The notes under the pieces are model-generated. The model had not been told where the DNA came from, ran no database searches, and worked only from the letters and a program-made list of their open reading frames with translations. The position numbers were made by a program, and so were the translations under genes. A stretch of 64,000 bases of DNA from Escherichia phage vB-Eco-KMB43, in sequence record OR525698.1; one strand, given 5' to 3'. This document shows, in pieces, positions 47,461 through 58,388 of this stretch (position 1 is the first letter of the stretch; the number at the start of each line of letters is the position of its first letter).

Positions 47461-47942
47461 TTTGCTAAATCATTGCAATATTTTAGTGCCTTAGTTTGAA
47501 ATTCTGCGCTGTTAAGTTCTTCATAACGGTCATAATCACCGTTTAATGCTGCTTTTCTTGCTTCTTGCTCTATCTGCATGTCAGACATGATAATACAGCG
47601 ATCCCGTGCTTTCATCTTCTCAAGTTGTATAAACTCTTCTTTCTGTTTGCGCAATTCTTCTTGACGCTTCTTTTCTTCTCGTGCTTTCTCTTCCCGCGCT
47701 TCTTTGATTGCATCCTTGAACATCTGCGTTTGTGGTGCTAAACCAACTTTAACGCGACCCACGTCTCGACGTTCCATTTTAGAAATAAAGCATGATTCGA
47801 TCTGATCATCACTTGCATATGCTGCTTTACATTCACGAAGCAAGAAAACCGGATCTGATTTAGCATTCATCATAGCTTCCATGTTAGCACAACCAGTAAG
47901 CATGAATGCAGACGCAAGACCAATTAGTTTAATCATTTTCAT
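47457..47942 (-). CDS. predicted lipoprotein with charged coiled-coil region
   Basis: 161 aa; signal peptide plus lipobox LTGC (MKMIKLIGLASAFMLTGC); Lys/Glu-rich helical segment. Confidence 0.5.
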   Translation of the reverse strand: MKMIKLIGLASAFMLTGCANMEAMMNAKSDPVFLLRECKAAYASDDQIESCFISKMERRDVGRVKVGLAPQTQMFKDAIKEAREEKAREEKKRQEELRKQKEEFIQLEKMKARDRCIIMSDMQIEQEARKAALNGDYDRYEELNSAEFQTKALKYCNDLAK

Positions 47943-48763
47943 TTAGTCACCTCACCGAAAATTGTAAATTGTCTACGATTCTCATCGCCGAAAGATTCTA
48001 CTACGTCGTTTACCTTGACGCAAGTCCCGCGCGGTAAAATTACTTCACATTCGCAAGGATTCCATGCAATTGACCCAACAACAAAACCTTTATGATCTTT
48101 TACGTCAATTACCCACGATACATTACAAGAATGTTGCATCTTTCCGGTCATCGATTCATATCGATTCTCACAATAAAGGCTAGTGCTGTTTGATAGCCAT
48201 CCTCCAAAGATGATCGGTGTCATGCTGGTCGATACAAAGTTTTTAAAGGTAAACTCCTTATCTTCAATGATGCGCTCTATTGTCTGAATGTCAAGATGTT
48301 GACCGCGATAAAGAGTACCGTTTAACTTTTCGGTTTTATCCATGACACAATCCATCAAATCGACAATCTCTGATATCTCGTCGGTCATGTCTTCTTCCCC
48401 TAAGAGAGCACCATTTACCCATTCGTATTGTTCAGATACATAATCACAGATTGCATTATATTCTGCTGGGGTTATGTTGTTATGTTTGTAATGTTTGAAT
48501 ACATTATCTCCAAAGTCTTCGGAATGTACTTCATACATCACATTAATGATTTTCTTGACAAATCCATAATCTTGTGTCTCGCGCTCAAGGAAGCGGATAA
48601 CCTTCACATAATCATCAAAGTTAATCTGATCGCTGATCATCTCAGTGATCATGTAACCATTAATCCCCTCAATGTCATATGTTTCAATATAATTGTCCAT
48701 ACGTTCCATCATTGATTCGCGTGATTCTTCCGAAAGACGAAAATCCTGTAATTTCTTGAACAT
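47939..48763 (-). CDS. ADP-ribosyltransferase, Alt-like paralogue (short)
   Basis: 274 aa; R-S-ExE motifs TLYRGQHL, FVSTSMTP, CECEVILPRG shared with the Alt ORF. Confidence 0.55.
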   Translation of the reverse strand: MFKKLQDFRLSEESRESMMERMDNYIETYDIEGINGYMITEMISDQINFDDYVKVIRFLERETQDYGFVKKIINVMYEVHSEDFGDNVFKHYKHNNITPAEYNAICDYVSEQYEWVNGALLGEEDMTDEISEIVDLMDCVMDKTEKLNGTLYRGQHLDIQTIERIIEDKEFTFKNFVSTSMTPIIFGGWLSNSTSLYCENRYESMTGKMQHSCNVSWVIDVKDHKGFVVGSIAWNPCECEVILPRGTCVKVNDVVESFGDENRRQFTIFGEVTK

Positions 48764-48842: not shown

Positions 48843-50894
48843 TTACATTTTAAATTTATCTGGCATTGCGTCTACAGATACCAGATCAGCGATAAGCTGA
48901 CGTAGAGTTGCCTTATCTGCTTTCTTACGTTCGGTTTTAGCTTCGCTAATGAAGCTGGAGAAAGACAGGTCAGAAGCAGGTTTAATAACACCTTCACGGA
49001 TGAATGCATCACCGTCTGCGATCATCTCGCCAGATTCTTGTAATGCTGCCAGTTCATTTTTGTTCATAATATGTGCCTCAATGTAATAAGTTTCTTGTGA
49101 ATCCGTCGATGCCGTAGCACGAGTTACCGTATCAAAGGATAACACAACACCGCGAGGAAGTAAAATCTCGCATTCTTTGTAAGCAAATGCTTTGTTACCT
49201 ACTGGCAACACAGGGATGTTTTCCGCGCCAGCAATGGAGAAAGCAACATTAGCGCCACCTTCACCGCGAGAGCCAGCCATAGAATCAACACCAGCAACGG
49301 CACTAGCCACGTTTGCATTCCAGCCGCCAAAAATGTTAGGTGCAAGGGAAGTGCTCACATAGTTTTTAAAGTAAAACGCTTTTTGCTTACGTGCAGTTTC
49401 CCACATTTGAGTCCGGAAGTCCATACCACGATACAGAATAGTACCCGGATCAAGTTTAACGCCATAGTTGGAGAAGGCATTATCCAGTGCATCGCACATC
49501 TTGACCAATTCTTCTGGATCTGCGATGCCTTCAAACTCTTCCAGCTTACGATCAGTTAGGAAGTTGTTCATATTGATGTATGCTGCATCGGCATATTCGC
49601 TCAATACAAAACCTTCCGCGCCCGGCAGATCAAGATCAATATCTGCCATCATTTCACCCATGTTGCTAGCAATTGCTTCAAACATACCGGAAGCAACATT
49701 ACGTAGGGCATCGGTTTTAATCTGGGTGATATGACTACGCAGCATTTCAGCTTTTACATCTGCTGGCATAGACTGGTCTACTCGATCCATTGCCAGGGCG
49801 GTGATCTTGTTTTCGAATACTTCCTCGCTCATGATTTCTTTTAAGCGTTTGATTGATGCTGCGATAACTTCCGCAGACAACGGATCATATTGATCCTGAA
49901 CTTTTACCAGTTCGCTTACTGCGTATTTTGCATCTGCTTCGCTTTCAAAAATAGTACGCATGAAACCATAGCGAGTGATAATATCACTTGTCCAGTCATT
50001 CAGAGAACGGGCGGTTGAACGTTCTAATGCTTGACGATCAATCAGAGTATTAAACTGTTTCTTAGGTTCGGCTTCGGTGATATCTTCTTCCGGTTTAAGA
50101 TTAATTTTTTCTGGATGATTCACATAGTCGCTGTTATAGGTCGCTTGAGTTTTCAGCATTTCTTCTTTAGTCAAACGAGATTTAGCCGCTACGCGTTGTT
50201 CTGCTTCCGCGTTTCGTTCTTCTTCTGACACAAGACTAGCCGCATACGCCTCATCTTTAGTCAGAGATTCACCAGTAGCCTTAGATACCCAGCGATCACC
50301 TAAATCACTTTCTACTTTAGTGAACAAGGATTCATCAAGTTTAATCCCTTTAATCTTATCAATCGCCATCCCGCGACGCTTGACAACAACTAAAGCGATC
50401 TTTTTGCTGGTCATTACTTCCTGCTGGAATACTTCAAACTTCGGTGTACGACGCACCAAACGCTCTATAACGCGCTTAACCAGTTCGGTCTTACCTTTCA
50501 TGCGGGATACGTTAAAACGGAACATAACAGCGTCTAATTGCGCTTTACGGGCTGTTTCCATAACCACATCAAAAGCACTTGCCATAACTGCAATCGGGTT
50601 ATCTCCTAGACCATTTTTAAGCTGTACAATACGACCGCTTTTGTTCATTTCGCACAGTACAACATGTGCGGTCTTGTCACCCATACGAATGATTTTAGGT
50701 GTTTTGTTGGTGAAGTTACAAAGACGGACAATCACATCTTTATCGCGTGTCTGTACTGCAAAAAGCTGTTTAGGATTCTGCTTAGGCTTTAAGCACTGTA
50801 CCGGAGCAATACTGCCAAAGTTTTCTTCCTCTTCCGTCAACAGCCATTTCTCGAAAGATTCAATCATTAGATCGTCGATTTCTAAGTTAAACAT
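48843..50894 (-). CDS. alt: Alt ADP-ribosyltransferase
   Basis: 683 aa (T4 Alt 682 aa); ART motifs ILYRGMDF, YVSTSLAP, KECEILLPRG near C-terminus. Confidence 0.7.
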   Translation of the reverse strand: MFNLEIDDLMIESFEKWLLTEEEENFGSIAPVQCLKPKQNPKQLFAVQTRDKDVIVRLCNFTNKTPKIIRMGDKTAHVVLCEMNKSGRIVQLKNGLGDNPIAVMASAFDVVMETARKAQLDAVMFRFNVSRMKGKTELVKRVIERLVRRTPKFEVFQQEVMTSKKIALVVVKRRGMAIDKIKGIKLDESLFTKVESDLGDRWVSKATGESLTKDEAYAASLVSEEERNAEAEQRVAAKSRLTKEEMLKTQATYNSDYVNHPEKINLKPEEDITEAEPKKQFNTLIDRQALERSTARSLNDWTSDIITRYGFMRTIFESEADAKYAVSELVKVQDQYDPLSAEVIAASIKRLKEIMSEEVFENKITALAMDRVDQSMPADVKAEMLRSHITQIKTDALRNVASGMFEAIASNMGEMMADIDLDLPGAEGFVLSEYADAAYINMNNFLTDRKLEEFEGIADPEELVKMCDALDNAFSNYGVKLDPGTILYRGMDFRTQMWETARKQKAFYFKNYVSTSLAPNIFGGWNANVASAVAGVDSMAGSRGEGGANVAFSIAGAENIPVLPVGNKAFAYKECEILLPRGVVLSFDTVTRATASTDSQETYYIEAHIMNKNELAALQESGEMIADGDAFIREGVIKPASDLSFSSFISEAKTERKKADKATLRQLIADLVSVDAMPDKFKM

Positions 50895-50961: not shown

Positions 50962-51174
50962 TTATAATGCACCATCGAGCAATTGCTCTAAGGTGTATCC
51001 TGAATAGTCTTTTTCAATCAGGATATATTTTCCTACTCGTTTAATACAACCGCGCATTTCAACGTATTCTGCGTAGTTGATGGTGCGAGTTGTTCCATCT
51101 TCCAGTAATGCAGTACCGATTTCGTTAATGCGGTCATAAGTTACGTCGGTAATGATGATTTCGATGTTAGCCAT
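50962..51174 (-). CDS. hypothetical small protein (70 aa)
   Basis: ORF preceded by cassette copy 1 with AAGGAG SD. Confidence 0.45.
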   Translation of the reverse strand: MANIEIIITDVTYDRINEIGTALLEDGTTRTINYAEYVEMRGCIKRVGKYILIEKDYSGYTLEQLLDGAL

Positions 51175-51245
51175 TTGATACTCCTTAGTAGTTCGTTTCG
51201 GTATGGGTGTATTATGATATACACCCTCTGTTATGTCAACAACTT
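51175..51245 (-). promoter_or_regulatory. promoter/5'UTR cassette copy 1 (PeSL-like)
   Basis: minus-strand TTGACA (plus 51234-51239), 17-bp spacer, CATAAT, conserved UTR ...ACACCCATACCGAAACGA..AAGGAG. Confidence 0.6.
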
Positions 51246-51425: not shown

Positions 51426-51495
51426 GTTTGATTCCCCTTTCGTTTCGGTATGTGTGTATTATAGGGGATCACCGATCCCCCTGTCAACAACTTTT
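51426..51495 (-). promoter_or_regulatory. promoter/5'UTR cassette copy 2 (PeSL-like)
   Basis: TTGACA (plus 51482-51487), palindromic spacer GGGGGATCGGTGATCCCC, TATAAT, conserved UTR. Confidence 0.65.
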
Positions 51496-51498
51496 TAG

Positions 51499-53061: not shown

Positions 53062-53303
53062 ATACGCCCCTTTAATCCAACACAGATTTTAGAAGGTTCT
53101 TTGCCGTGCCACATTAAGTAAAGTCCATTAATGCGGCCTTGTTTTGTATATGATTCTTTTCTGATCTTCTTATAGTGTCGTGCTTCCTCAGCCGATTGTT
53201 TAGAATACCAATCATAAAGGAAGAGGCACAAAGGCCAACCATTAGCGGCCTTAATGCAGTTATTAAGAAATTCCTTATTGCGTTTAATTAATTTTCTTTT
53301 CAC
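53058..53303 (-). CDS. hypothetical basic protein (81 aa)
   Basis: ORF with overlapping start/stop in the operon. Confidence 0.4.
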   Translation of the reverse strand: MKRKLIKRNKEFLNNCIKAANGWPLCLFLYDWYSKQSAEEARHYKKIRKESYTKQGRINGLYLMWHGKEPSKICVGLKGRI

Positions 53304-53551
53304 GCTGCCCCCATTGGTTTGATAGTAACAGAATCTAAAAGACCTTTGTTAGCCAGTTCGCGGCAAGTTTTCAGATCCGCAACTTCCCAGCCAGCCGCAA
53401 TCAGGTTATCGATGAGGCTGTTAGCAACTTCTTCGCTCATGAAAGAGCACTGTTTGCCGATGGTGTAGCGTACACGCTGTAATTTCAGTTTACGGAAGCC
53501 TTTAACGTTCAGGTCTTTAGCGATTTTCTTTGCGGTTTCGATGTTAGCCAT
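53300..53551 (-). CDS. hypothetical protein (83 aa), first gene of the operon
   Basis: ATG directly downstream of cassette copy 3 (AGGAGAATCAAACAATG). Confidence 0.45.
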   Translation of the reverse strand: MANIETAKKIAKDLNVKGFRKLKLQRVRYTIGKQCSFMSEEVANSLIDNLIAAGWEVADLKTCRELANKGLLDSVTIKPMGAA

Positions 53552-53628
53552 TGTTTGATTCTCCTAAGTGGTATCTAGTCTTGATGGTTGTATTGTAGGG
53601 GAGTTATCCTCCCCTGTCAACACTTTTT
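53552..53628 (-). promoter_or_regulatory. promoter/5'UTR cassette copy 3 (PeSL-like)
   Basis: TTGACA (plus 53615-53620), palindromic spacer GGGGAGGATAACTCCCC, TACAAT, conserved UTR. Confidence 0.6.
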
Positions 53629-53634
53629 ATAAAA

Positions 53635-53802
53635 TTATTTGTTAATTTCCGGTGCGTTGCTAGGATAGTAACCTTCTTTAACTCCGAGGTATTTCGCAAC
53701 CATCCCTACAATCTTCTGTGCTACTACAATGTCAAATTTCAGATAATCTTCGCCGTGGGTTTCAATGATATATGCTTCACATGCTGCTTTAGTCTCGAAC
53801 AT
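53635..53802 (-). CDS. hypothetical small protein (55 aa), paralogue of 57256-57423
   Basis: ATG after cassette copy 4; about 87% amino-acid identity to the second copy. Confidence 0.5.
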   Translation of the reverse strand: MFETKAACEAYIIETHGEDYLKFDIVVAQKIVGMVAKYLGVKEGYYPSNAPEINK

Positions 53803-53873
53803 TTTGATTCTCCTATTTCGTTTCGGTATGTGTGTATTATAGGGGATCTCCCGATCCCCGTCAACAACTTTTT
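53803..53873 (-). promoter_or_regulatory. promoter/5'UTR cassette copy 4 (PeSL-like)
   Basis: TTGACG (plus 53860-53865), palindromic spacer GGGATCGGGAGATCCCC, TATAAT. Confidence 0.6.
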
Positions 53874-53880
53874 TTTAAAA

Positions 53881-54162
53881 TTATTCGTGATTAGTTTCGA
53901 TGTTGTGCATTTTGCACCAGTTCAGCCAATCACCCAGATCCTGATAGTTAATGCTTTTATCTGCTGCCATCGTTTTTGTCTTGATACCCATATGTGCGTT
54001 ATGAGTAAGCATTTTTACAGTGAACTCAATTTTATCACCTTTAGCTTTAACATCAACCAGTTTGGTCCACTGGCTACCAGCGCCGCGAATGTTCATACCA
54101 ACGATGTTTCCGATGTATGCTTCTTTGTTTTTCAGGATTTCGGTTGCTTTGATGAATTTCAT
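53881..54162 (-). CDS. hypothetical protein (93 aa)
   Basis: ORF downstream of cassette copy 5. Confidence 0.45.
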   Translation of the reverse strand: MKFIKATEILKNKEAYIGNIVGMNIRGAGSQWTKLVDVKAKGDKIEFTVKMLTHNAHMGIKTKTMAADKSINYQDLGDWLNWCKMHNIETNHE

Positions 54163-54232
54163 TTTTGATTCTCCAGTTCGTTTCGGTATGTGTGTATTAT
54201 GCTATTTTCTTACTTTGGTGTCAACAACTTTT
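54163..54232 (-). promoter_or_regulatory. promoter/5'UTR cassette copy 5 (PeSL-like)
   Basis: TTGACA (plus 54219-54224), CATAAT, conserved UTR. Confidence 0.55.
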
Positions 54233-54233
54233 T

Positions 54234-54503
54234 TTAGATATTTTCAGAAATAAATTTTAAAACTTGACGTAAATGTTTCTCATCTTTGATAGTCGCCGGA
54301 AGTTCTTCTTTTACTTCCTGTGCAAGATAGATATTTCCGTTCCAAGTGAAAGATCCGTCTTCGTTTACGCGATAGCTGAACATCCACTCGCAATCATTTT
54401 CGATTTCATATACACACAGAAGAGTGTAATCTTCAAAGCTATTGATTTCAAGGTCGAAGCCGTGACGTTTTGCAAAGTTGGTAGTGGTTTTAGTCAGTGC
54501 CAT
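54234..54503 (-). CDS. hypothetical protein (89 aa)
   Basis: ORF downstream of cassette copy 6. Confidence 0.45.
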   Translation of the reverse strand: MALTKTTTNFAKRHGFDLEINSFEDYTLLCVYEIENDCEWMFSYRVNEDGSFTWNGNIYLAQEVKEELPATIKDEKHLRQVLKFISENI

Positions 54504-54580
54504 TGTTTGATTCTCCTAAGTGGTATCTCGTCTTGATGGGTGTATTATGCTATAGGCGTGATCTGGTGTCAATGCTTTTT
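54504..54580 (-). promoter_or_regulatory. promoter/5'UTR cassette copy 6 (PeSL-like)
   Basis: TTGACA (plus 54567-54572), 17-bp spacer, CATAAT. Confidence 0.55.
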
Positions 54581-54820
54581 TTAATTTTATGCAATAAAAA
54601 GACGACACTAAGGTCGGCACATTTTAAAAATTCTTGCCATATATGCAAGCCTCATAATCTAGAGGATGACCGCCAATCCTACCCGGCTTAATATTCCAAC
54701 CGCATCGATATTTGCTGACCATGCTAACAGTTTCGGTTCTTAGAGCATTTTCTTTGCAAATCATACCCCATAAATTCTTTTCTATAAGGACAGTCCGCTT
54801 TGCAAGTTGGCGGTTCTACG

Positions 54821-55012
54821 TCATTTAGCGGGTCGGAAGCAGTTGGCTTTATTATCAATTCTTTGTTTGCAATAATCATAAGCACATCCCATTGAAGACA
54901 ATTTAACATCTTCGCAATAAGTGTTGAATCCGTCAAACACGGTCACTTCGTATTTGACTCCATCAGCGATAGCTTTTACTTTATACCATCCATGCTTGTA
55001 TAAAATCTTCAT
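54821..55012 (-). CDS. hypothetical Cys-rich protein (63 aa)
   Basis: ATG directly downstream of cassette copy 7; overlapped out of frame by ORF 54724-54936. Confidence 0.4.
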   Translation of the reverse strand: MKILYKHGWYKVKAIADGVKYEVTVFDGFNTYCEDVKLSSMGCAYDYCKQRIDNKANCFRPAK

Positions 55013-55082
55013 CTTTATTTCCTCAATCTCGTTTCGATGGGTGTATTATGCTATAGGCTAGACCAGGTTGTCAACAACTTTT
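55013..55082 (-). promoter_or_regulatory. promoter/5'UTR cassette copy 7 (PeSL-like)
   Basis: TTGACA (plus 55069-55074), CATAAT, conserved UTR. Confidence 0.55.
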
Positions 55083-55103
55083 TTAATTTTTTGGAAATAA
55101 AAA

Positions 55104-55124
55104 AGCCGACGCTAAGGTCGGCTA
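55104..55124 (-). terminator. rho-independent terminator (minus strand)
   Basis: AGCCGACGCTAAGGTCGGCT hairpin with TTTTTT on the minus strand; degenerate copy at 54597-54620. Confidence 0.6.
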
Positions 55125-55130
55125 ATAAAA

Positions 55131-55439
55131 TCATTTAGACAAATAATCATTCTGTGCAATCCGGTCGGCGTATGCTGGTGTTACGTCAATCGCCAACACT
55201 TTAACGCGTGCTTTCTTGCGACCTGGGTTTTCTCGTAACCAGTGCTCATGACCGTGCACATTTTTATATTTTGATGCGGTTTCGAAGGTACGGATCGGAC
55301 CTGGATAATCTGCGTAAAGGATCTCTAGGTCTTCGGTGATGTAAAAATATACATCATAATTACTGTTCTCTAGTTTAAGCAGAGAATTGCGAAATTGTGG
55401 TAAATTCTCGCGGGTAAATTCAACTACAAGATTTTTCAT
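55131..55439 (-). CDS. small protein, paralogue family A (HxHW ... AxDV.P..AD), member 1
   Basis: ATG 55439 with GAGGA SD; HEHW and VLAIDVTPAYAD motifs. Confidence 0.5.
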   Translation of the reverse strand: MKNLVVEFTRENLPQFRNSLLKLENSNYDVYFYITEDLEILYADYPGPIRTFETASKYKNVHGHEHWLRENPGRKKARVKVLAIDVTPAYADRIAQNDYLSK

Positions 55440-55468
55440 AGTGATATCCTCATTCAGATAGATTAAAA

Positions 55469-55483
55469 GGGGCTTAACGCCCC
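55469..55483 (-). terminator. hairpin terminator (minus strand)
   Basis: GGGGCTTAACGCCCC palindrome, identical to 50941-50955. Confidence 0.5.
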
Positions 55484-55488
55484 GTATA

Positions 55489-55776
55489 TTAAAACAGTCC
55501 TTCCTGTACACCGTAGTAGAGTTCGTCACTGATAATTTCATTAATGCGACGGTGTGCATATTCCTGATTTGCGAAGTTGTCAGCAAGTTCTACTTTAGTT
55601 TCGCCGTCATGAGTCCATTTAGTGATAACTTTACCATCTGCAAATTTGAAGTTGAACTCTTTAGCTACTGCATCGCGTACCAGACGTGCGAACTTGTTGT
55701 TACGGATTGCATTATCGGTTTCGTGTGCAGCGTGAGCAAATTTGTTAACTTTCAGAGTGATAGTAATGTATGCCAT
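55489..55776 (-). CDS. small protein, paralogue family B, member 1
   Basis: 95 aa; LVRDAVAKEFNFK shared with 58658-58969 (LIREVRKALAKEFNTK). Confidence 0.5.
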   Translation of the reverse strand: MAYITITLKVNKFAHAAHETDNAIRNNKFARLVRDAVAKEFNFKFADGKVITKWTHDGETKVELADNFANQEYAHRRINEIISDELYYGVQEGLF

Positions 55777-55859
55777 AATTTGATTCTCCTAGTTAGAAAG
55801 TGTATCTCGTTTCGATGGGTGTATTATGCTATACACCCGATCCATTGTCAACGCCTTTT
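55777..55859 (-). promoter_or_regulatory. promoter/5'UTR cassette copy 8 (PeSL-like)
   Basis: TTGACA (plus 55846-55851) overlapping the stop codon of the upstream ORF; CATAAT. Confidence 0.55.
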
Positions 55860-56183
55860 TATAAAATAATTTTCGATATCTTTATGATGTTTTTCTCGTG
55901 CTTGGTCTGCCTCGGCTGGCGATACGTTGGAAGCGATAATCTTCACTACTGTTGCACCTTTTTCGGTGTCCGACACCCAATGATTATGGAAACCGCTATT
56001 ATTAAACACTTGATAAGAAAATGATTTAATGCTAGGGAAATTATATGTGTAATAGCGTACCTTTAATTCTGAATCTATGTATAGATAGATCACCGCACCT
56101 AGATAGACCGTCTCACTCGTTCCATCAACTAACAGTAGAGTATTTCGCAATTCTTCTAAATTGTCTTTTGTAAGAAAAATCAT
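55848..56183 (-). CDS. small protein, paralogue family A, member 2
   Basis: 111 aa; LYIDSELKVRYY, HNHW, IIASNVSPAEAD. Confidence 0.5.
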   Translation of the reverse strand: MIFLTKDNLEELRNTLLLVDGTSETVYLGAVIYLYIDSELKVRYYTYNFPSIKSFSYQVFNNSGFHNHWVSDTEKGATVVKIIASNVSPAEADQAREKHHKDIENYFIKRR

Positions 56184-56197
56184 AGTATAATCCTCAA

Positions 56198-56533
56198 TTA
56201 AACCAAATTAACTTTGGTGTTGTGGTGTTTTTCTCGTGCTTCGTCCGCTTCTTCCGGTGTCACGTTACGAGCGACTACAATAACACTTGCTGCCTCTCCG
56301 TGATGAGAGATCTCTACCCAATGGTTATGATTTGTGAATCCGTGTTTTATTGCGTAAGCGAACGGCTTGGACGTCCAGTAGTTACTATAATATCGTACAT
56401 TTAGATCGCTATCAATGTACAAATATGTGCTGTCGTTTACATTGCCACTAACAACAAAAACAAGACAATTGCGAAGATCTGGCAATATTTTGTCTGTCAA
56501 TTTTATAATGTGACTGTTCATAATTAACACCAC
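56198..56533 (-). CDS. small protein, paralogue family A, member 3
   Basis: 111 aa; LYIDSDLNVRYY, HNHW, VVARNVTPEEAD. Confidence 0.5.
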   Translation of the reverse strand: MVLIMNSHIIKLTDKILPDLRNCLVFVVSGNVNDSTYLYIDSDLNVRYYSNYWTSKPFAYAIKHGFTNHNHWVEISHHGEAASVIVVARNVTPEEADEAREKHHNTKVNLV

Positions 56534-56733
56534 TCAAGAGTTTTTGAAAACACATCTATCCATTGTTGAGTATATGCAGTTTCTTTCCACGAGACAATAC
56601 CAGTAGAATAATGATTCTTGTTTCCAGAAAAGGACGGGCATTTTGATGCATCTTCCATCATCTTTTCGGCGAACTCTGGTTCGTATACTCGCAAGATCTG
56701 TTGATATGCTTTGTAGTCTTTAAATTTGCTCAT
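56524..56733 (-). CDS. hypothetical small protein (69 aa)
   Basis: ORF between family A members. Confidence 0.4.
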   Translation of the reverse strand: MSKFKDYKAYQQILRVYEPEFAEKMMEDASKCPSFSGNKNHYSTGIVSWKETAYTQQWIDVFSKTLEWC

Positions 56734-56998
56734 AATCGTTAACTACCTTATCAGCTTCTTTTATTGTTTTTACATCAACTGCGATAACCCGTAAAGGTTC
56801 GTCGTGGTTCCACCAATGATCGTGAATATCAGCTTGTGATTTATCACCAAAGGAATCACGAATATCATTTTTACATTTATAGCTAATGTGACCGTCATAG
56901 TCAACATAAAGGTAATTATCGAAAATCGGCGTTTTTAAGATCATGCCGAAAAATCTTTCTTTGTGTGTCTTATCCAGTGTTGCAGTAATTCGCATCAT
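56720..56998 (-). CDS. small protein, paralogue family A, member 4
   Basis: 92 aa; HDHW, VIAVDVKTIKEAD; AGAGGAA SD. Confidence 0.5.
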   Translation of the reverse strand: MMRITATLDKTHKERFFGMILKTPIFDNYLYVDYDGHISYKCKNDIRDSFGDKSQADIHDHWWNHDEPLRVIAVDVKTIKEADKVVNDYEQI

Positions 56999-57010
56999 AA
57001 TATATTCCTC

Positions 57011-57190
57011 TTAGAAAGGGATGGTCATTTCTTGAGCTTGTACATTCTCGTTAGGATTAAACTTCATCCAACCGATATTGTCTACCAGCATATGCACATT
57101 TTTATCATATCCTACGTGAGTAGTCAATACTAAATGTGCTTTACCTTCAACGATGATTTCCATGTACTTCTGAACTTCGATAGCTTTCAT
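57011..57190 (-). CDS. hypothetical small protein (59 aa)
   Basis: ATG directly downstream of cassette copy 9; not in ORF track. Confidence 0.4.
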   Translation of the reverse strand: MKAIEVQKYMEIIVEGKAHLVLTTHVGYDKNVHMLVDNIGWMKFNPNENVQAQEMTIPF

Positions 57191-57191
57191 T

Positions 57192-57255
57192 TTTGATTCT
57201 CCGTTTGTTGTCTTGATGGGAGTATATTACTACTCCCTTTAATCATTGTCAACTA
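57192..57255 (-). promoter_or_regulatory. promoter/5'UTR cassette copy 9 (PeSL-like)
   Basis: TTGACA (plus 57247-57252), 17-bp spacer, TAATAT; palindrome GGGAGTA..TACTCCC. Confidence 0.5.
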
Positions 57256-57423
57256 TTATTTGTTAATTTCCGGTGCGTTGCTCGGATAGTAACCTTCTTT
57301 AACACCCAGATATTTTGCGACCATTCCGGTGATCTTCTGTGCTACTACAATGTCAAATTTCAGGTAGTCTTCACCGTGGTTTGCTACAATGTATGCTTCG
57401 CATTCTGCTTTAGTCTGGAACAT
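57256..57423 (-). CDS. hypothetical small protein (55 aa), paralogue of 53635-53802
   Basis: near-identical nucleotide and protein sequence to the first copy; ATG after cassette copy 10. Confidence 0.5.
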   Translation of the reverse strand: MFQTKAECEAYIVANHGEDYLKFDIVVAQKITGMVAKYLGVKEGYYPSNAPEINK

Positions 57424-57493
57424 TTTTGATTCTCCTATATCTCGTTGGTATGTGTGTAGTATAGGGGATCACCGATCCCCTGTCAACAACTTT
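57424..57493 (-). promoter_or_regulatory. promoter/5'UTR cassette copy 10 (PeSL-like)
   Basis: TTGACA (plus 57481-57486), palindromic spacer GGGGATCGGTGATCCCC, TATACT. Confidence 0.6.
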
Positions 57494-57802
57494 TTATTCT
57501 TCATCTTCATCTTTATCTTGATATGCGTACGTCATAAATTTGTCTGCTACTTTGTCCGCGTTTTCAGGTTCTACGTCTGACGCTAGGACAACAGCTAGTT
57601 CTGTTTTGTCGTTTCCATCATACCAATGATTATGAGTGTCGTTTTCTTCGATATAAAACGAATCATTTGGAGTTGTGCGACAATATACGTCTAAATTCCC
57701 ATCGATATAAAAGATCCAATCCGAATACAAAATGATTGTTTTAGCAAGATTTTTATTGCCTTCAACGAAAGGTTCGGCTACAAACAAATTAGTATGTTCC
57801 AT
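57494..57802 (-). CDS. small protein, paralogue family A, member 5
   Basis: ATG 57802 with GAGGA SD; HNHW, LAVVLASDVEPENAD. Confidence 0.5.
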   Translation of the reverse strand: MEHTNLFVAEPFVEGNKNLAKTIILYSDWIFYIDGNLDVYCRTTPNDSFYIEENDTHNHWYDGNDKTELAVVLASDVEPENADKVADKFMTYAYQDKDEDEE

Positions 57803-57819
57803 AGTATTTTTCCTCAAAA

Positions 57820-58011
57820 TTATACAGCTTCGTAAACTTCCCAATGTCCAACACCAGCACGCTTAACGAAAAGGTTTTCTTTTATGTTATTCATAAACGT
57901 CTGGATGGATTTAATTCGTTTGGAAGGTTTCCAGTCTTCGTTGGTATTGCGTCGATACATCATAACATTACCAGACCGCTTATATTCAGCAACCATTTTA
58001 AGACCACACAT
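57820..58011 (-). CDS. hypothetical small protein (63 aa)
   Basis: ATG 58011 with GAGGA SD downstream of cassette copy 11. Confidence 0.4.
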   Translation of the reverse strand: MCGLKMVAEYKRSGNVMMYRRNTNEDWKPSKRIKSIQTFMNNIKENLFVKRAGVGHWEVYEAV

Positions 58012-58090
58012 AATATTATCCTCAATTTGTGGGAGAGTATTACCCTCCCGATTATTGTTATACTACATTACGCAAAATGGCGTGTCAATG
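58012..58090 (-). promoter_or_regulatory. promoter cassette copy 11 (divergent variant)
   Basis: TTGACA (plus 58083-58088, inside the 3' end of the upstream ORF), TAGTAT; palindrome GGGAG..CTCCC. Confidence 0.4.
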
Positions 58091-58388
58091 CTTCTTTTGC
58101 TGTTCCGCTAAGATTCTCTATCTCTCCTGGCATAACATCAACCGCCAGAACTTCTACAACATCCTCTGATCCTAACCAGTGAGTATGACCTTTGTAGAAC
58201 TTGATAATCAGACTACCTTCCTCATCCCATTTAACGCTATCGCTAGCCCACCACACATCACCGTCGATAAAGTTGATGTAAAGCACACTACGCCACATTG
58301 AATTAATTACTTTCAATACTGCGCCTTTCATATCTTCCACGGTGTGGTCTTCCATTTTGAAGACCTCGCCTACCTGAACTTTTGCCAT
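58068..58388 (-). CDS. small protein, paralogue family A, member 6
   Basis: 106 aa; HTHW, VLAVDVMPGEIEN. Confidence 0.5.
   Translation of the reverse strand: MAKVQVGEVFKMEDHTVEDMKGAVLKVINSMWRSVLYINFIDGDVWWASDSVKWDEEGSLIIKFYKGHTHWLGSEDVVEVLAVDVMPGEIENLSGTAKEALTRHFA

What the first reader, a model, noticed from the sequence alone, without database searches (positions are those of the whole stretch)
53635..57423. Recent duplication of a 55-aa gene within the cassette array
ORFs 53635-53802 and 57256-57423 are near-identical at nucleotide level and about 87% identical as proteins (MF(E/Q)TKA(A/E)CEAYI...VAQKI(V/T)GMVAKYLGVKEGYYPSNAPEINK), each directly behind a cassette promoter. This is direct evidence that cassette-flanked modules are copied within the region.
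Basis: seen in the sequence. Interest (0 to 1): 0.4.

Follow-up and report, generated by a model that had tools for sequence, protein, structure and literature searches.

The report
Old paralog pair in phage cassette array
Two copies of a tiny early gene of unknown function in an RB49-like (Krischvirus) coliphage are a real but ancient duplicate pair, each behind one of the already described promoter/stem-loop cassettes (PeSLs); the pair is ordinary for this phage group and is not a recent copying event.

Summary
The two 55-aa ORFs exist at the stated coordinates on the minus strand. They are 49/55 identical as proteins. At DNA level they are only 86% identical (145/168; dS about 0.75, dN/dS about 0.07), not near-identical.

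The window is a Krischvirus (RB49/phi1/JSE-like T4-type coliphage). The copies are orthologues of RB49 ORF191 and ORF205. The "cassettes" are the published PeSLs of Arbiol et al. 2010.

Fifty-one of 58 Krischvirus records carry both copies. The ORF191-type and ORF205-type genes form separate sister clades. Divergence between the copies (dS 0.8-0.95) far exceeds divergence among orthologues (0.05-0.16), so the duplication predates the sampled genus.

Homology runs from the upstream PeSL to 2 nt past the stop codon, as expected for a PeSL-bounded module. The upstream PeSL match is not specific to this pair.

Relatives show continuing recombination at this pair:
- two independent deletions of the roughly 3.6 kb between the copies (Cognac, FL04);
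- precise absence of copy A, leaving one chimeric PeSL (UPWr_E1, Brandy, JK32);
- conversion patches between the copies (PTE-Eco09, Brandy, Cognac).

The protein (PHROG 8009) has no known function. It is a predicted two-helix hairpin with a conserved tail.

Verdict: real, already explained, low interest.

The parts
53635..53802 (-). Copy A: 55-aa early ORFan, orthologue of RB49 ORF191 / phi1 ORF191 (PHROG 8009)
   Evidence: ORF list. It is 98-100% identical at protein level to the annotated hypothetical protein in 53 Krischvirus records. RB49 annotation RB49p191. PHROG 8009, E 7e-38.
53803..53880 (-). PeSL upstream of copy A. It fills the whole intergenic gap: AT tract, TTGACG, hairpin GGGGATCgggaGATCCCC, TATAAT, leader ACACACATACCGAAACGAAAT, SD AGGAG, then ATG.
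   Evidence: RNA fold -14.9 kcal/mol, z -2.4. In the same position as the phi1 cassette between ORF193 and ORF191.
53552..53634 (-). PeSL downstream of copy A (promoter of the ORF190 orthologue). It is a different leader subtype (ACAACCATCAAGACTAGATACCACTTAGGAG). Homology between the two copies ends here.
   Evidence: Hairpin GGGGAGgataaCTCCCC, -19.4 kcal/mol, z -5.0.
57256..57423 (-). Copy B: 55-aa early ORFan, orthologue of RB49 ORF205 / phi1 ORF205 (PHROG 8009)
   Evidence: It is 96-100% identical at protein level in 56 Krischvirus records. RB49p205. PHROG 8009, E 1e-38.
57424..57493 (-). PeSL upstream of copy B (= PeSL206/205 of RB49): TTGACA, hairpin GGGGATCggtGATCCCC, TATACT, leader, SD, ATG
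   Evidence: The RB49 PeSL206/205 was measured as a very strong promoter (about 13,000 Miller units) in PMC2839356.
57191..57255 (-). Variant PeSL downstream of copy B (TTGACA-17-TAATAT with hairpin GGGAGTAgtaataTACTCCC overlapping the -10). Homology between the copies ends here.
   Evidence: -12.2 kcal/mol, z -3.4.
53881..57190 (-). Block of about ten small ORFans and their cassettes lying between the two direct-repeat copies. It is deleted as a unit in phages Cognac and FL04 by recombination between the copies.
   Evidence: ORFs. blastn segment maps of Cognac (L004) and FL04 (L007) against the window. Crossover mapping.

Best explanation
The window is the alt-to-gene-30 hyperplastic region of a Krischvirus (RB49-like T4-type coliphage). 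The two ORFs are the orthologues of RB49 ORF191 and ORF205. They are an old paralogous pair of one PeSL-flanked ORFan module (PeSL promoter/stem-loop plus a 55-aa gene).

Inferred origin: the module was copied once, before the radiation of the sequenced Krischvirus phages. The route was homologous recombination in PeSL repeats, either unequal crossing-over between PeSLs in replicating concatemers or excision as a PeSL mini-circle and re-insertion at another PeSL.

Shown: both copies have since been kept under strong purifying selection (dN/dS about 0.07). Each is transcribed from its own strong early sigma-70 promoter and insulated by the stem-loop.

Shown by comparison with relatives: as 240-nt direct repeats 3.3-4.3 kb apart, the copies still recombine with each other. 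This produces deletions of the intervening ORFans, precise loss of one copy, and short gene-conversion patches.

Inferred only: the protein is a small two-helix early protein with a conserved GYYPSN tail. It most likely binds a host or phage partner during take-over. Its function is not known.
For: Identity of the region:
- It is 93-97% identical at nt level to Krischvirus genomes, and the copies map to RB49p191 and RB49p205.

Age of the pair:
- 51 of 58 Krischvirus records have both copies.
- Mean dS is 0.05 among A orthologues and 0.16 among B orthologues, against 0.83-0.95 between A and B.
- In an NJ tree the A and B genes form sister, reciprocally monophyletic clades, with the L010 homologue and swi2 outside them.

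Selection:
- dN/dS is 0.07.

Module bounds:
- Homology starts in the upstream PeSL and ends 2 nt after the stop codon.

PeSL anatomy:
- 11 promoters matching 11-12 of 12 consensus positions lie on the gene strand within 8 kb. All are intergenic and most have GGGG...CCCC hairpins.

Ongoing recombination:
- FL04 and Cognac each keep a single copy, with B's upstream neighbours and A's downstream neighbours.
- The FL04 crossover lies in the loop of the PeSL hairpin. The Cognac crossover lies between the SD and the ATG, and Cognac also has a B-type patch at codons 38-47.
- UPWr_E1, Brandy and JK32 lack copy A and have one chimeric PeSL at the site. MIZ4 has a larger PeSL-to-PeSL deletion.
- PTE-Eco09 copy A is B-type from the -10 box through about codon 8.
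- PTE-Eco09 and Brandy copy B carry an A-type patch at codons 17-26.

Literature (PMC2839356):
- PeSLs were defined in RB49 and phi1.
- PeSL206/205 is a very strong promoter.
- A mini-circle containing ORFans 191-194 was sequenced.
Against: - The copying event itself is not observed.
- The upstream PeSLs of A and B (64/70 identical) are no closer to each other than A's is to the PeSL at 51426-51498 (66/73). Co-duplication of promoter and gene therefore cannot be demonstrated.
- Conversion between the copies blurs both the divergence estimate and the tree.
- The tree rests on 150 nt, and I did not test its branch support.
- The family also occurs in unrelated siphoviruses and in an unplaced contig, so horizontal acquisition is possible.
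- No evidence on protein function was obtained.
Confidence: 0.7

Rival explanations
1. Two independent acquisitions (xenologues). One copy is vertical. The other is a diverged allele brought in from a related phage as a PeSL-flanked module or mini-circle and inserted at a resident PeSL, rather than copied within the genome.
For: - PeSL-mediated insertion and mini-circles are documented at this locus (PMC2839356).
- The 55-aa family is horizontally spread: Swiduovirus and Sashavirus siphoviruses and an unrelated Logan contig with an 83% identical homologue.
- Mosaic alleles show frequent exchange.
- 14% nt divergence with both copies intact is what an imported allele would look like.
Against: - A and B are each other's closest relatives in every database searched. 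Only 5 representative clusters were found among 1.84 billion proteins. The phage collection contains no T4-like genus other than Krischvirus with a homologue.
- They share derived residues (H16, Y38) against all outgroups and form sister clades.
- No donor lineage is known.
Confidence: 0.2
2. One reading: a recent intragenomic duplication specific to this phage or its immediate relatives.
For: The protein identity is high (89%). The two loci look alike by eye because the PeSLs are alike.
Against: - Nucleotide identity is 86% and dS is 0.75.
- Both copies are present in RB49, phi1, JSE and 48 further records.
- Orthologues are 94-100% identical at nt level, against 84-90% between paralogues.
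- The A and B clades are reciprocally monophyletic.
Confidence: 0.03
3. The similarity reflects only the shared regulatory cassette or chance, and the ORFs are not real genes.
For: The ORFs are very short (55 aa), have no Pfam or NCBIfam family, and lie among many overlapping spurious ORFs.
Against: - The similarity spans all 168 coding nt.
- The substitution pattern is strongly codon-structured: 14 synonymous-only codons against 6 nonsynonymous, dN/dS 0.07.
- Homologues are conserved at protein level in unrelated siphoviruses at 44-72%.
- The AF2 model is confident for so shallow an alignment (pLDDT 79).
- Each ORF has a consensus SD 6-7 nt before the ATG.
Confidence: 0.01

Closest known systems
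PeSL (promoter-early stem-loop) cassettes and PeSL-mediated modular shuffling in RB49/phi1-type phages (Arbiol, Comeau, Kutateladze, Adamia, Krisch 2010, PMC2839356; Comeau et al. 2014, PMC4122927)
   Same: Same phage genus, same hyperplastic region and the same cassettes. The PeSL before copy B is PeSL206/205, whose promoter strength was measured. Copy A (ORF191) lies in the sequenced 191-194 mini-circle. The crossover sites I mapped in natural variants (hairpin loop; between -10 and SD; between SD and ATG) match those reported for mini-circles.
   Different: The papers describe insertion, deletion and replacement of ORFans. Text searches of both papers found no mention of paralogues or duplications. 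The ORF191/ORF205 paralogy, the deletions between the two copies and the conversion patches are not discussed there.
Morons of lambdoid phages (single genes with their own promoter and terminator)
   Same: A small accessory gene carrying its own promoter and an insulating stem-loop. Homologues in siphoviruses sit as isolated small genes next to terminase genes.
   Different: In the moron model the regulatory sequences are not the vehicle of mobility (discussion of PMC2839356). Here the conserved flanking PeSLs are the recombination substrates.
Direct-repeat-mediated deletion and gene conversion between dispersed paralogues (general homologous recombination; T4 needs under 50 bp of homology, Singer et al. 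1982 as cited in PMC2839356)
   Same: Two 240-nt direct repeats at 86% identity, 3.3-4.3 kb apart, give deletion of the interval (Cognac, FL04) and patchy conversion.
   Different: Nothing unusual. It is simply an instance in a phage accessory region.
PHROG 8009 (phage protein family of unknown function)
   Same: Both copies match the 55-position profile end to end (E 7e-38 and 1e-38).
   Different: The family has no annotation, so membership says nothing about function.

Membership tests
PeSL-flanked ORFan module (Arbiol et al. 2010) | Sigma-70 consensus -35 and -10 hexamers preceded by an AT-rich tract | tested here: met
   TTGACG-17-TATAAT (copy A) and TTGACA-17-TATACT (copy B), both 11 of 12, each preceded by an A-run. 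Eleven such sites lie on the gene strand in 51-59.2 kb.
PeSL-flanked ORFan module (Arbiol et al. 2010) | Stable stem-loop, typically GGGG...CCCC, between or overlapping the promoter hexamers | tested here: met
   GGGGATC-loop-GATCCCC in both upstream cassettes. MFE -14.9 and -13.8 kcal/mol against shuffle means of -9.0 and -9.4 (z -2.4 and -1.7). The downstream cassettes give -19.4 (z -5.0) and -12.2 (z -3.4).
PeSL-flanked ORFan module (Arbiol et al. 2010) | Shine-Dalgarno sequence and start codon of an ORFan at the 3' end, with the cassette filling the intergenic gap in a hyperplastic region of a T4-type phage | tested here: met
   AGGAGAATCAAA(A)ATG in both. [quoted passage not shown] The region lies between alt and gene 30 in Krischvirus genomes.
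PeSL-flanked ORFan module (Arbiol et al. 2010) | Promoter and terminator activity in vivo | not testable with these tools
   Literature only. RB49 PeSL206/205 gave about 13,000 Miller units. The stem-loop of PeSL211/210 terminated as well as rrnB T1 (PMC2839356).
PeSL-flanked ORFan module (Arbiol et al. 2010) | Recombination between PeSLs produces presence/absence polymorphism of the flanked gene, leaving one chimeric PeSL | tested here: met
   UPWr_E1, Brandy and JK32 have one chimeric PeSL (5' half of the upstream-A cassette, 3' half of the downstream-A cassette) in place of copy A. MIZ4 has a PeSL-to-PeSL deletion. The FL04 crossover is in the hairpin loop.
PeSL-flanked ORFan module (Arbiol et al. 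2010) | Formation of circular excision products (mini-circles) | not testable with these tools
   Literature only. An RB49 mini-circle containing ORFans 191-194 was sequenced (PMC2839356). None is reported for ORF205.
Recent intragenomic duplication | Copies nearly identical at synonymous sites, with the duplicate absent from close relatives | tested here: not met
   dS 0.75. Both copies are in 51 of 58 Krischvirus records. Paralogue divergence is 5-18 times orthologue divergence.
PHROG 8009 | Full-length match to the family profile | tested here: met
   E 6.8e-38 and 1.2e-38, residues 1-55 on profile positions 1-55.

The most novel reading that the evidence does not exclude
The two diverged copies are kept for a reason beyond redundancy.
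- As proteins, they may be subfunctionalised early effectors. They differ at six positions: 3, 7 and 13-15 in or near predicted helix 1, and 32 in helix 2. Whether these positions are surface-exposed was not examined. The two forms might recognise two variants of a host or defence target.
- As DNA, their direct-repeat arrangement may act as a built-in, recurrent switch that deletes the roughly ten ORFans between them, or regains them through co-infection. Krischvirus populations would then always contain long and short versions of this accessory region.

Two independent natural deletions (Cognac, FL04) and several conversion tracts are compatible with this but do not prove it.
Probability: 0.12. 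Interest if true: 0.4.

Novelty: already known. Interest (0 to 1): 0.15.

Why it matters
It matters little beyond housekeeping. The region is the type locality of the PeSL shuffling model, and the genes have been deposited as hypothetical proteins since the RB49 genome.

The useful points are modest:
1. The pair gives a clean, datable example that PeSL-bounded modules can be duplicated as well as inserted or deleted.
2. Public genomes already contain natural recombinants whose crossover points can be read to the nucleotide and match those of the published mini-circles.
3. Strong purifying selection on both copies, plus spread of the family to unrelated enterobacterial siphoviruses, marks this 55-aa protein as a functional early protein worth a knockout or pull-down. 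This holds although nothing here suggests what it does.

Tried and rejected
Function searches that found nothing:
- Pfam and NCBIfam gave no family.
- A PDB sequence-profile search gave no hit.
- The AF2 model (pLDDT 79; two helices, residues 5-16 and 18-39, plus a tail) had no Foldseek match in PDB or BFVD below E = 3.
- PHROG 8009, and a weak match to PHROG 485 (E 0.01), both have unknown function.

Homologue searches:
- The word-indexed search found only 4 clusters.
- The exhaustive HMMER search of 1.84 billion representatives found only 5. One (P0006) is the first 22 aa of copy B fused to an unrelated C-terminus. One (P0008) is a 20-residue match in a 1625-aa protein, which I regard as spurious.

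PeSL similarity as a marker of co-duplication: rejected, because A's PeSL is as close to the PeSL at 51426-51498 as to B's.

A larger segmental duplication: rejected. The genes flanking A and B are unrelated.

The contig carrying the 83% homologue P0003 (L010):
- It has no nt match in the phage collection and is not present in 5426 complete E. coli genomes.
- It joins an ORF194-like gene and the 55-aa gene to genes that I recognise from memory as resembling E. coli ycdX and ghrA (Pfam lists only PHP and 2-Hacid_dh_C).
- It may be a chimeric assembly, and I left it there.

Uneven spread of A/B differences: only 1 of the 23 differences falls in the last 48 nt (binomial P 0.004, window chosen post hoc). 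This may reflect conversion or constraint and was not resolved.

Literature: text searches found no paper naming ORF191/ORF205 as paralogues.


Full report
**What is in the sequence**

Both are on the minus strand and both encode 55 aa. BLASTP gives 49/55 identical residues (89%, E 1e-37). The coding DNA is 145/168 identical (86.3%). Of the 20 codons that differ, 14 differ only synonymously and 6 change the amino acid. Nei-Gojobori estimates are dN 0.055, dS 0.75 and dN/dS 0.07. An independent repeat search reports the pair as a 172-nt direct repeat at 87% identity with 3621-nt spacing. The pair is therefore real and far beyond chance, but "near-identical at nucleotide level" is wrong.

**Boundaries**

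In gene orientation, similarity stops 2 nt after the stop codon (TAAT). The downstream intergenic cassettes are of different subtypes:
- after copy A: ...TTGACAGGGGAGGATAACTCCCCTACAAT...
- after copy B: ...TTGACAATGATTAAAGGGAGTAGTAATAT...

Upstream, similarity continues through the complete 70-78-nt intergenic cassette to the stop codon of the preceding, unrelated gene (64/70 identical). That cassette belongs to a repeat family. Copy A's cassette is equally close to the one at 51426-51498 (66/73). The copied unit is therefore "ORF, with or without its upstream cassette". The upstream edge cannot be placed more precisely than within the cassette.

**What the cassettes and the region are**

The 7.5 kb around the finding is 93-97% identical to Krischvirus genomes such as PHB13, FL37, ELT4, JSE and RB49. 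These are T4-type coliphages of the family Straboviridae. In RB49, copy A is ORF191 (RB49p191) and copy B is ORF205 (RB49p205). Both lie in the accessory region between alt and gene 30.

The cassettes are the PeSLs (promoter-early stem-loops) described in RB49 and phi1 by Arbiol et al. 2010 (PMC2839356). A PeSL consists of an AT tract, a sigma-70 -35 box, a GGGG...CCCC hairpin, a -10 box, a leader, an SD and the ATG.

In this window I find 11 promoters on the gene strand between 51 and 59.2 kb that match 11-12 of the 12 consensus positions. All of them are intergenic. The hairpins fold at -12 to -19 kcal/mol, better than shuffled controls.

The published work bears directly on both copies:
- PeSL206/205, the cassette in front of copy B, was cloned and gave about 13,000 Miller units.
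- A sequenced RB49 mini-circle contained ORFans 191-194 and so included copy A.

This window lacks ORF192, like phi1. ORF193 directly precedes copy A.

**Age of the duplication**

tblastn against 50,697 phage records finds the family in 58 Krischvirus records:

| Copies present | Records | Which |
|---|---|---|
| Both | 51 | includes RB49, phi1, JSE |
| Only B-type | 5 | MIZ4, MIZ5, UPWr_E1, Brandy, JK32 |
| Only A-type | 2 | Cognac, FL04 |

I extracted 18 gene copies from 12 genomes:

| Comparison | nt identity | Mean dS |
|---|---|---|
| A orthologues | 96-100% | 0.05 |
| B orthologues | 94-100% | 0.16 |
| A versus B | 84-90% | 0.83 (0.95 without the mosaic copies) |

Mean dN between A and B is 0.053. 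A neighbour-joining tree on 150 codon-aligned nt places all A genes and all B genes in two reciprocally monophyletic sister clades. An 83%-identical metagenomic homologue (P0003, on contig L010) and the siphovirus swi2 fall outside them. I did not assess branch support for this tree. A and B also share residues H16 and Y38, which no outgroup has. The split between A and B therefore predates the radiation of the sequenced genus. Both copies have been held under strong purifying selection. "Recent" is refuted.

**Evidence that the modules recombine**

The single-copy genomes are natural recombinants.

- **Cognac and FL04.** Each has one copy flanked upstream by B's neighbours and downstream by A's neighbours. 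The roughly 3.6 kb between the copies (about ten ORFs in this window) has been deleted. The crossovers differ, so these are independent events.
  - In FL04 the switch from B-type to A-type sequence lies in the loop of the PeSL hairpin (GGGGATCGG|GAGATCCCC).
  - In Cognac the PeSL is B-type through the SD, the CDS is A-type for codons 1-37 and B-type for codons 38-47, and the downstream flank is A-type.
- **UPWr_E1, Brandy and JK32.** These lack copy A exactly. ORF193 and ORF190 are separated by one chimeric PeSL. Its 5' half matches the cassette upstream of A and its 3' half matches the cassette downstream of A. The switch lies between the -10 box and the SD.
- **MIZ4.** The cassette at A's upstream position is joined to the 3' half of the PeSL at 51175-51245, which removes copy A and six further genes.

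Two-copy genomes carry short exchanged tracts:
- PTE-Eco09 copy A is B-type from the -10 box through about codon 8.
- PTE-Eco09 and Brandy copy B carry an A-type patch at codons 17-26.
- The B copy in this window is A-like at codons 23-25 when compared with RB49 and phi1 copy B.

These crossover positions are the same classes reported for PeSL mini-circles: hairpin loop, -10 to SD, and SD to ATG.

**The protein**

Both copies match PHROG 8009 (unknown function) end to end. There is no Pfam, NCBIfam or PDB sequence match.

The family is very small. A word-indexed search found four clusters. An exhaustive HMMER search of 1.84 billion representatives found five matches, of which one is a fusion of the first 22 aa of copy B to an unrelated C-terminus and one is a 20-residue match in a 1625-aa protein.

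Outside Krischvirus, homologues occur in enterobacterial siphoviruses, where they are isolated small genes beside the terminase genes:
- Swiduovirus swi2 and the similar-sized phages Bas81, SeSz-2, D10 and Pu29, at 66-72% identity (I did not check the genus of the last four);
- Sashavirus Sasha and the similar phages Solent, Sergei and PDP46, at 44% identity.

An AlphaFold2 model (pLDDT 79) predicts two helices (residues 5-16 and 18-39) followed by the conserved tail GYYPSNAPEINK. Foldseek found nothing significant in PDB or BFVD. What can be said is that this is a genuine, selected, early-expressed small protein. A role as a binder of a host or phage partner is inference from its size, timing and genomic neighbourhood only.

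**Most likely mechanism and rivals**

Best explanation (confidence about 0.7): one old duplication of a PeSL-bounded module in the Krischvirus ancestor, by homologous exchange in PeSL repeats. The exchange was either unequal crossing-over or mini-circle re-insertion. Both copies were then retained under selection, and ectopic recombination between them continues. The points about age, selection and recombination are shown here. The copying route is inferred from the boundaries and from the published PeSL mechanism.

Main rival (about 0.2): the second copy is a diverged allele imported from a related phage at a PeSL. The family is horizontally mobile, so this cannot be excluded. However, no donor or intermediate lineage exists in any collection searched, and A and B are each other's closest relatives.

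The "recent duplication" reading and the "cassette-only or chance similarity" reading are refuted.

**Comparison with what is known, and novelty**

This is the same system, in the same genus and at the same locus, as the published PeSL modular-shuffling model. All PeSL features that can be tested on sequence are met. Promoter and terminator activity and mini-circles rest on the literature.

Text searches of the two PeSL papers, the five-genome T4-like comparison and the wider library found no mention of ORF191/ORF205 as paralogues, nor of duplications via PeSLs. The pair and its recombinant alleles are therefore a small addition to a known story, not a new kind of element. I rate it as already known, with low interest.

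Noticed in passing
window 55131-55586, 55848-56183, 56198-56533, 57494-57844 (minus strand); possibly also 56720-56998 and 58068-58388: A second, larger paralogue family of about 100-aa ORFans. They share an H-x-H-W motif and a C-terminal '(V/I)xxxV.P.EAD' stretch, and they lie between and beside the two 55-aa copies (blastp E 1e-5 to 1e-22). Gene duplication is therefore common in this accessory region. The last two members are related by eye only.
   Followed up: partly
window about 54504-54640 and about 55013-55135 (minus strand): A different repeated cassette. It has an intrinsic-terminator hairpin (GCCGACCTTAG(T/C)GTCG(T/G)C followed by a T-run), then an AT tract and a TTGACA-17/18-CATAAT promoter without the GGGG/CCCC hairpin. 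The two copies are about 80% identical over about 95 nt.
   Followed up: partly
window 53536-53551 and 51159-51174 (starts of ORFs 53300-53551 and 50962-51174, minus strand): Two unrelated proteins share their first 16 nt (ATGGCTAACATCGAAA, MANIE), so PeSL homology runs into the coding sequence. The MIZ4 deletion joins exactly these two cassettes.
   Followed up: partly
L002 4001-4156 (Swiduovirus swi2); L003 2992-3180 (Sashavirus Sasha): Homologues of the 55-aa protein (72/68% and 44% identical) occur in unrelated enterobacterial siphoviruses as isolated small genes next to the terminase genes. This indicates horizontal spread of the gene across phage families.
   Followed up: partly
L010 4723-5165 and 5158-6633 (Logan contig SRR5584643_240): An 83%-identical homologue sits directly after an ORF194-like gene (41% identical to window 54234-54503). 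It abuts a truncated PHP-family gene and a 2-hydroxyacid dehydrogenase gene, which I recognise from memory as resembling E. coli ycdX and ghrA. There is no nt match in the phage collection, and the segment is absent from 5426 complete E. coli genomes. It may be a chimeric assembly or an undescribed element.
   Followed up: partly
window 47939-48763 and 48843-50894 (minus strand): These two adjacent ORFs are paralogues (37% identical over 109 aa). By gene length and order they correspond to RB49 ORF183 and alt. The ORF183/alt paralogy is already noted in PMC1524935.
   Followed up: no
window 53803-53880 compared with RB49 (L001 5449-5925): This window lacks RB49 ORF192. ORF193 is followed directly by copy A through a single PeSL. 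This is the phi1 arrangement that Arbiol et al. used to illustrate PeSL-mediated excision.
   Followed up: yes
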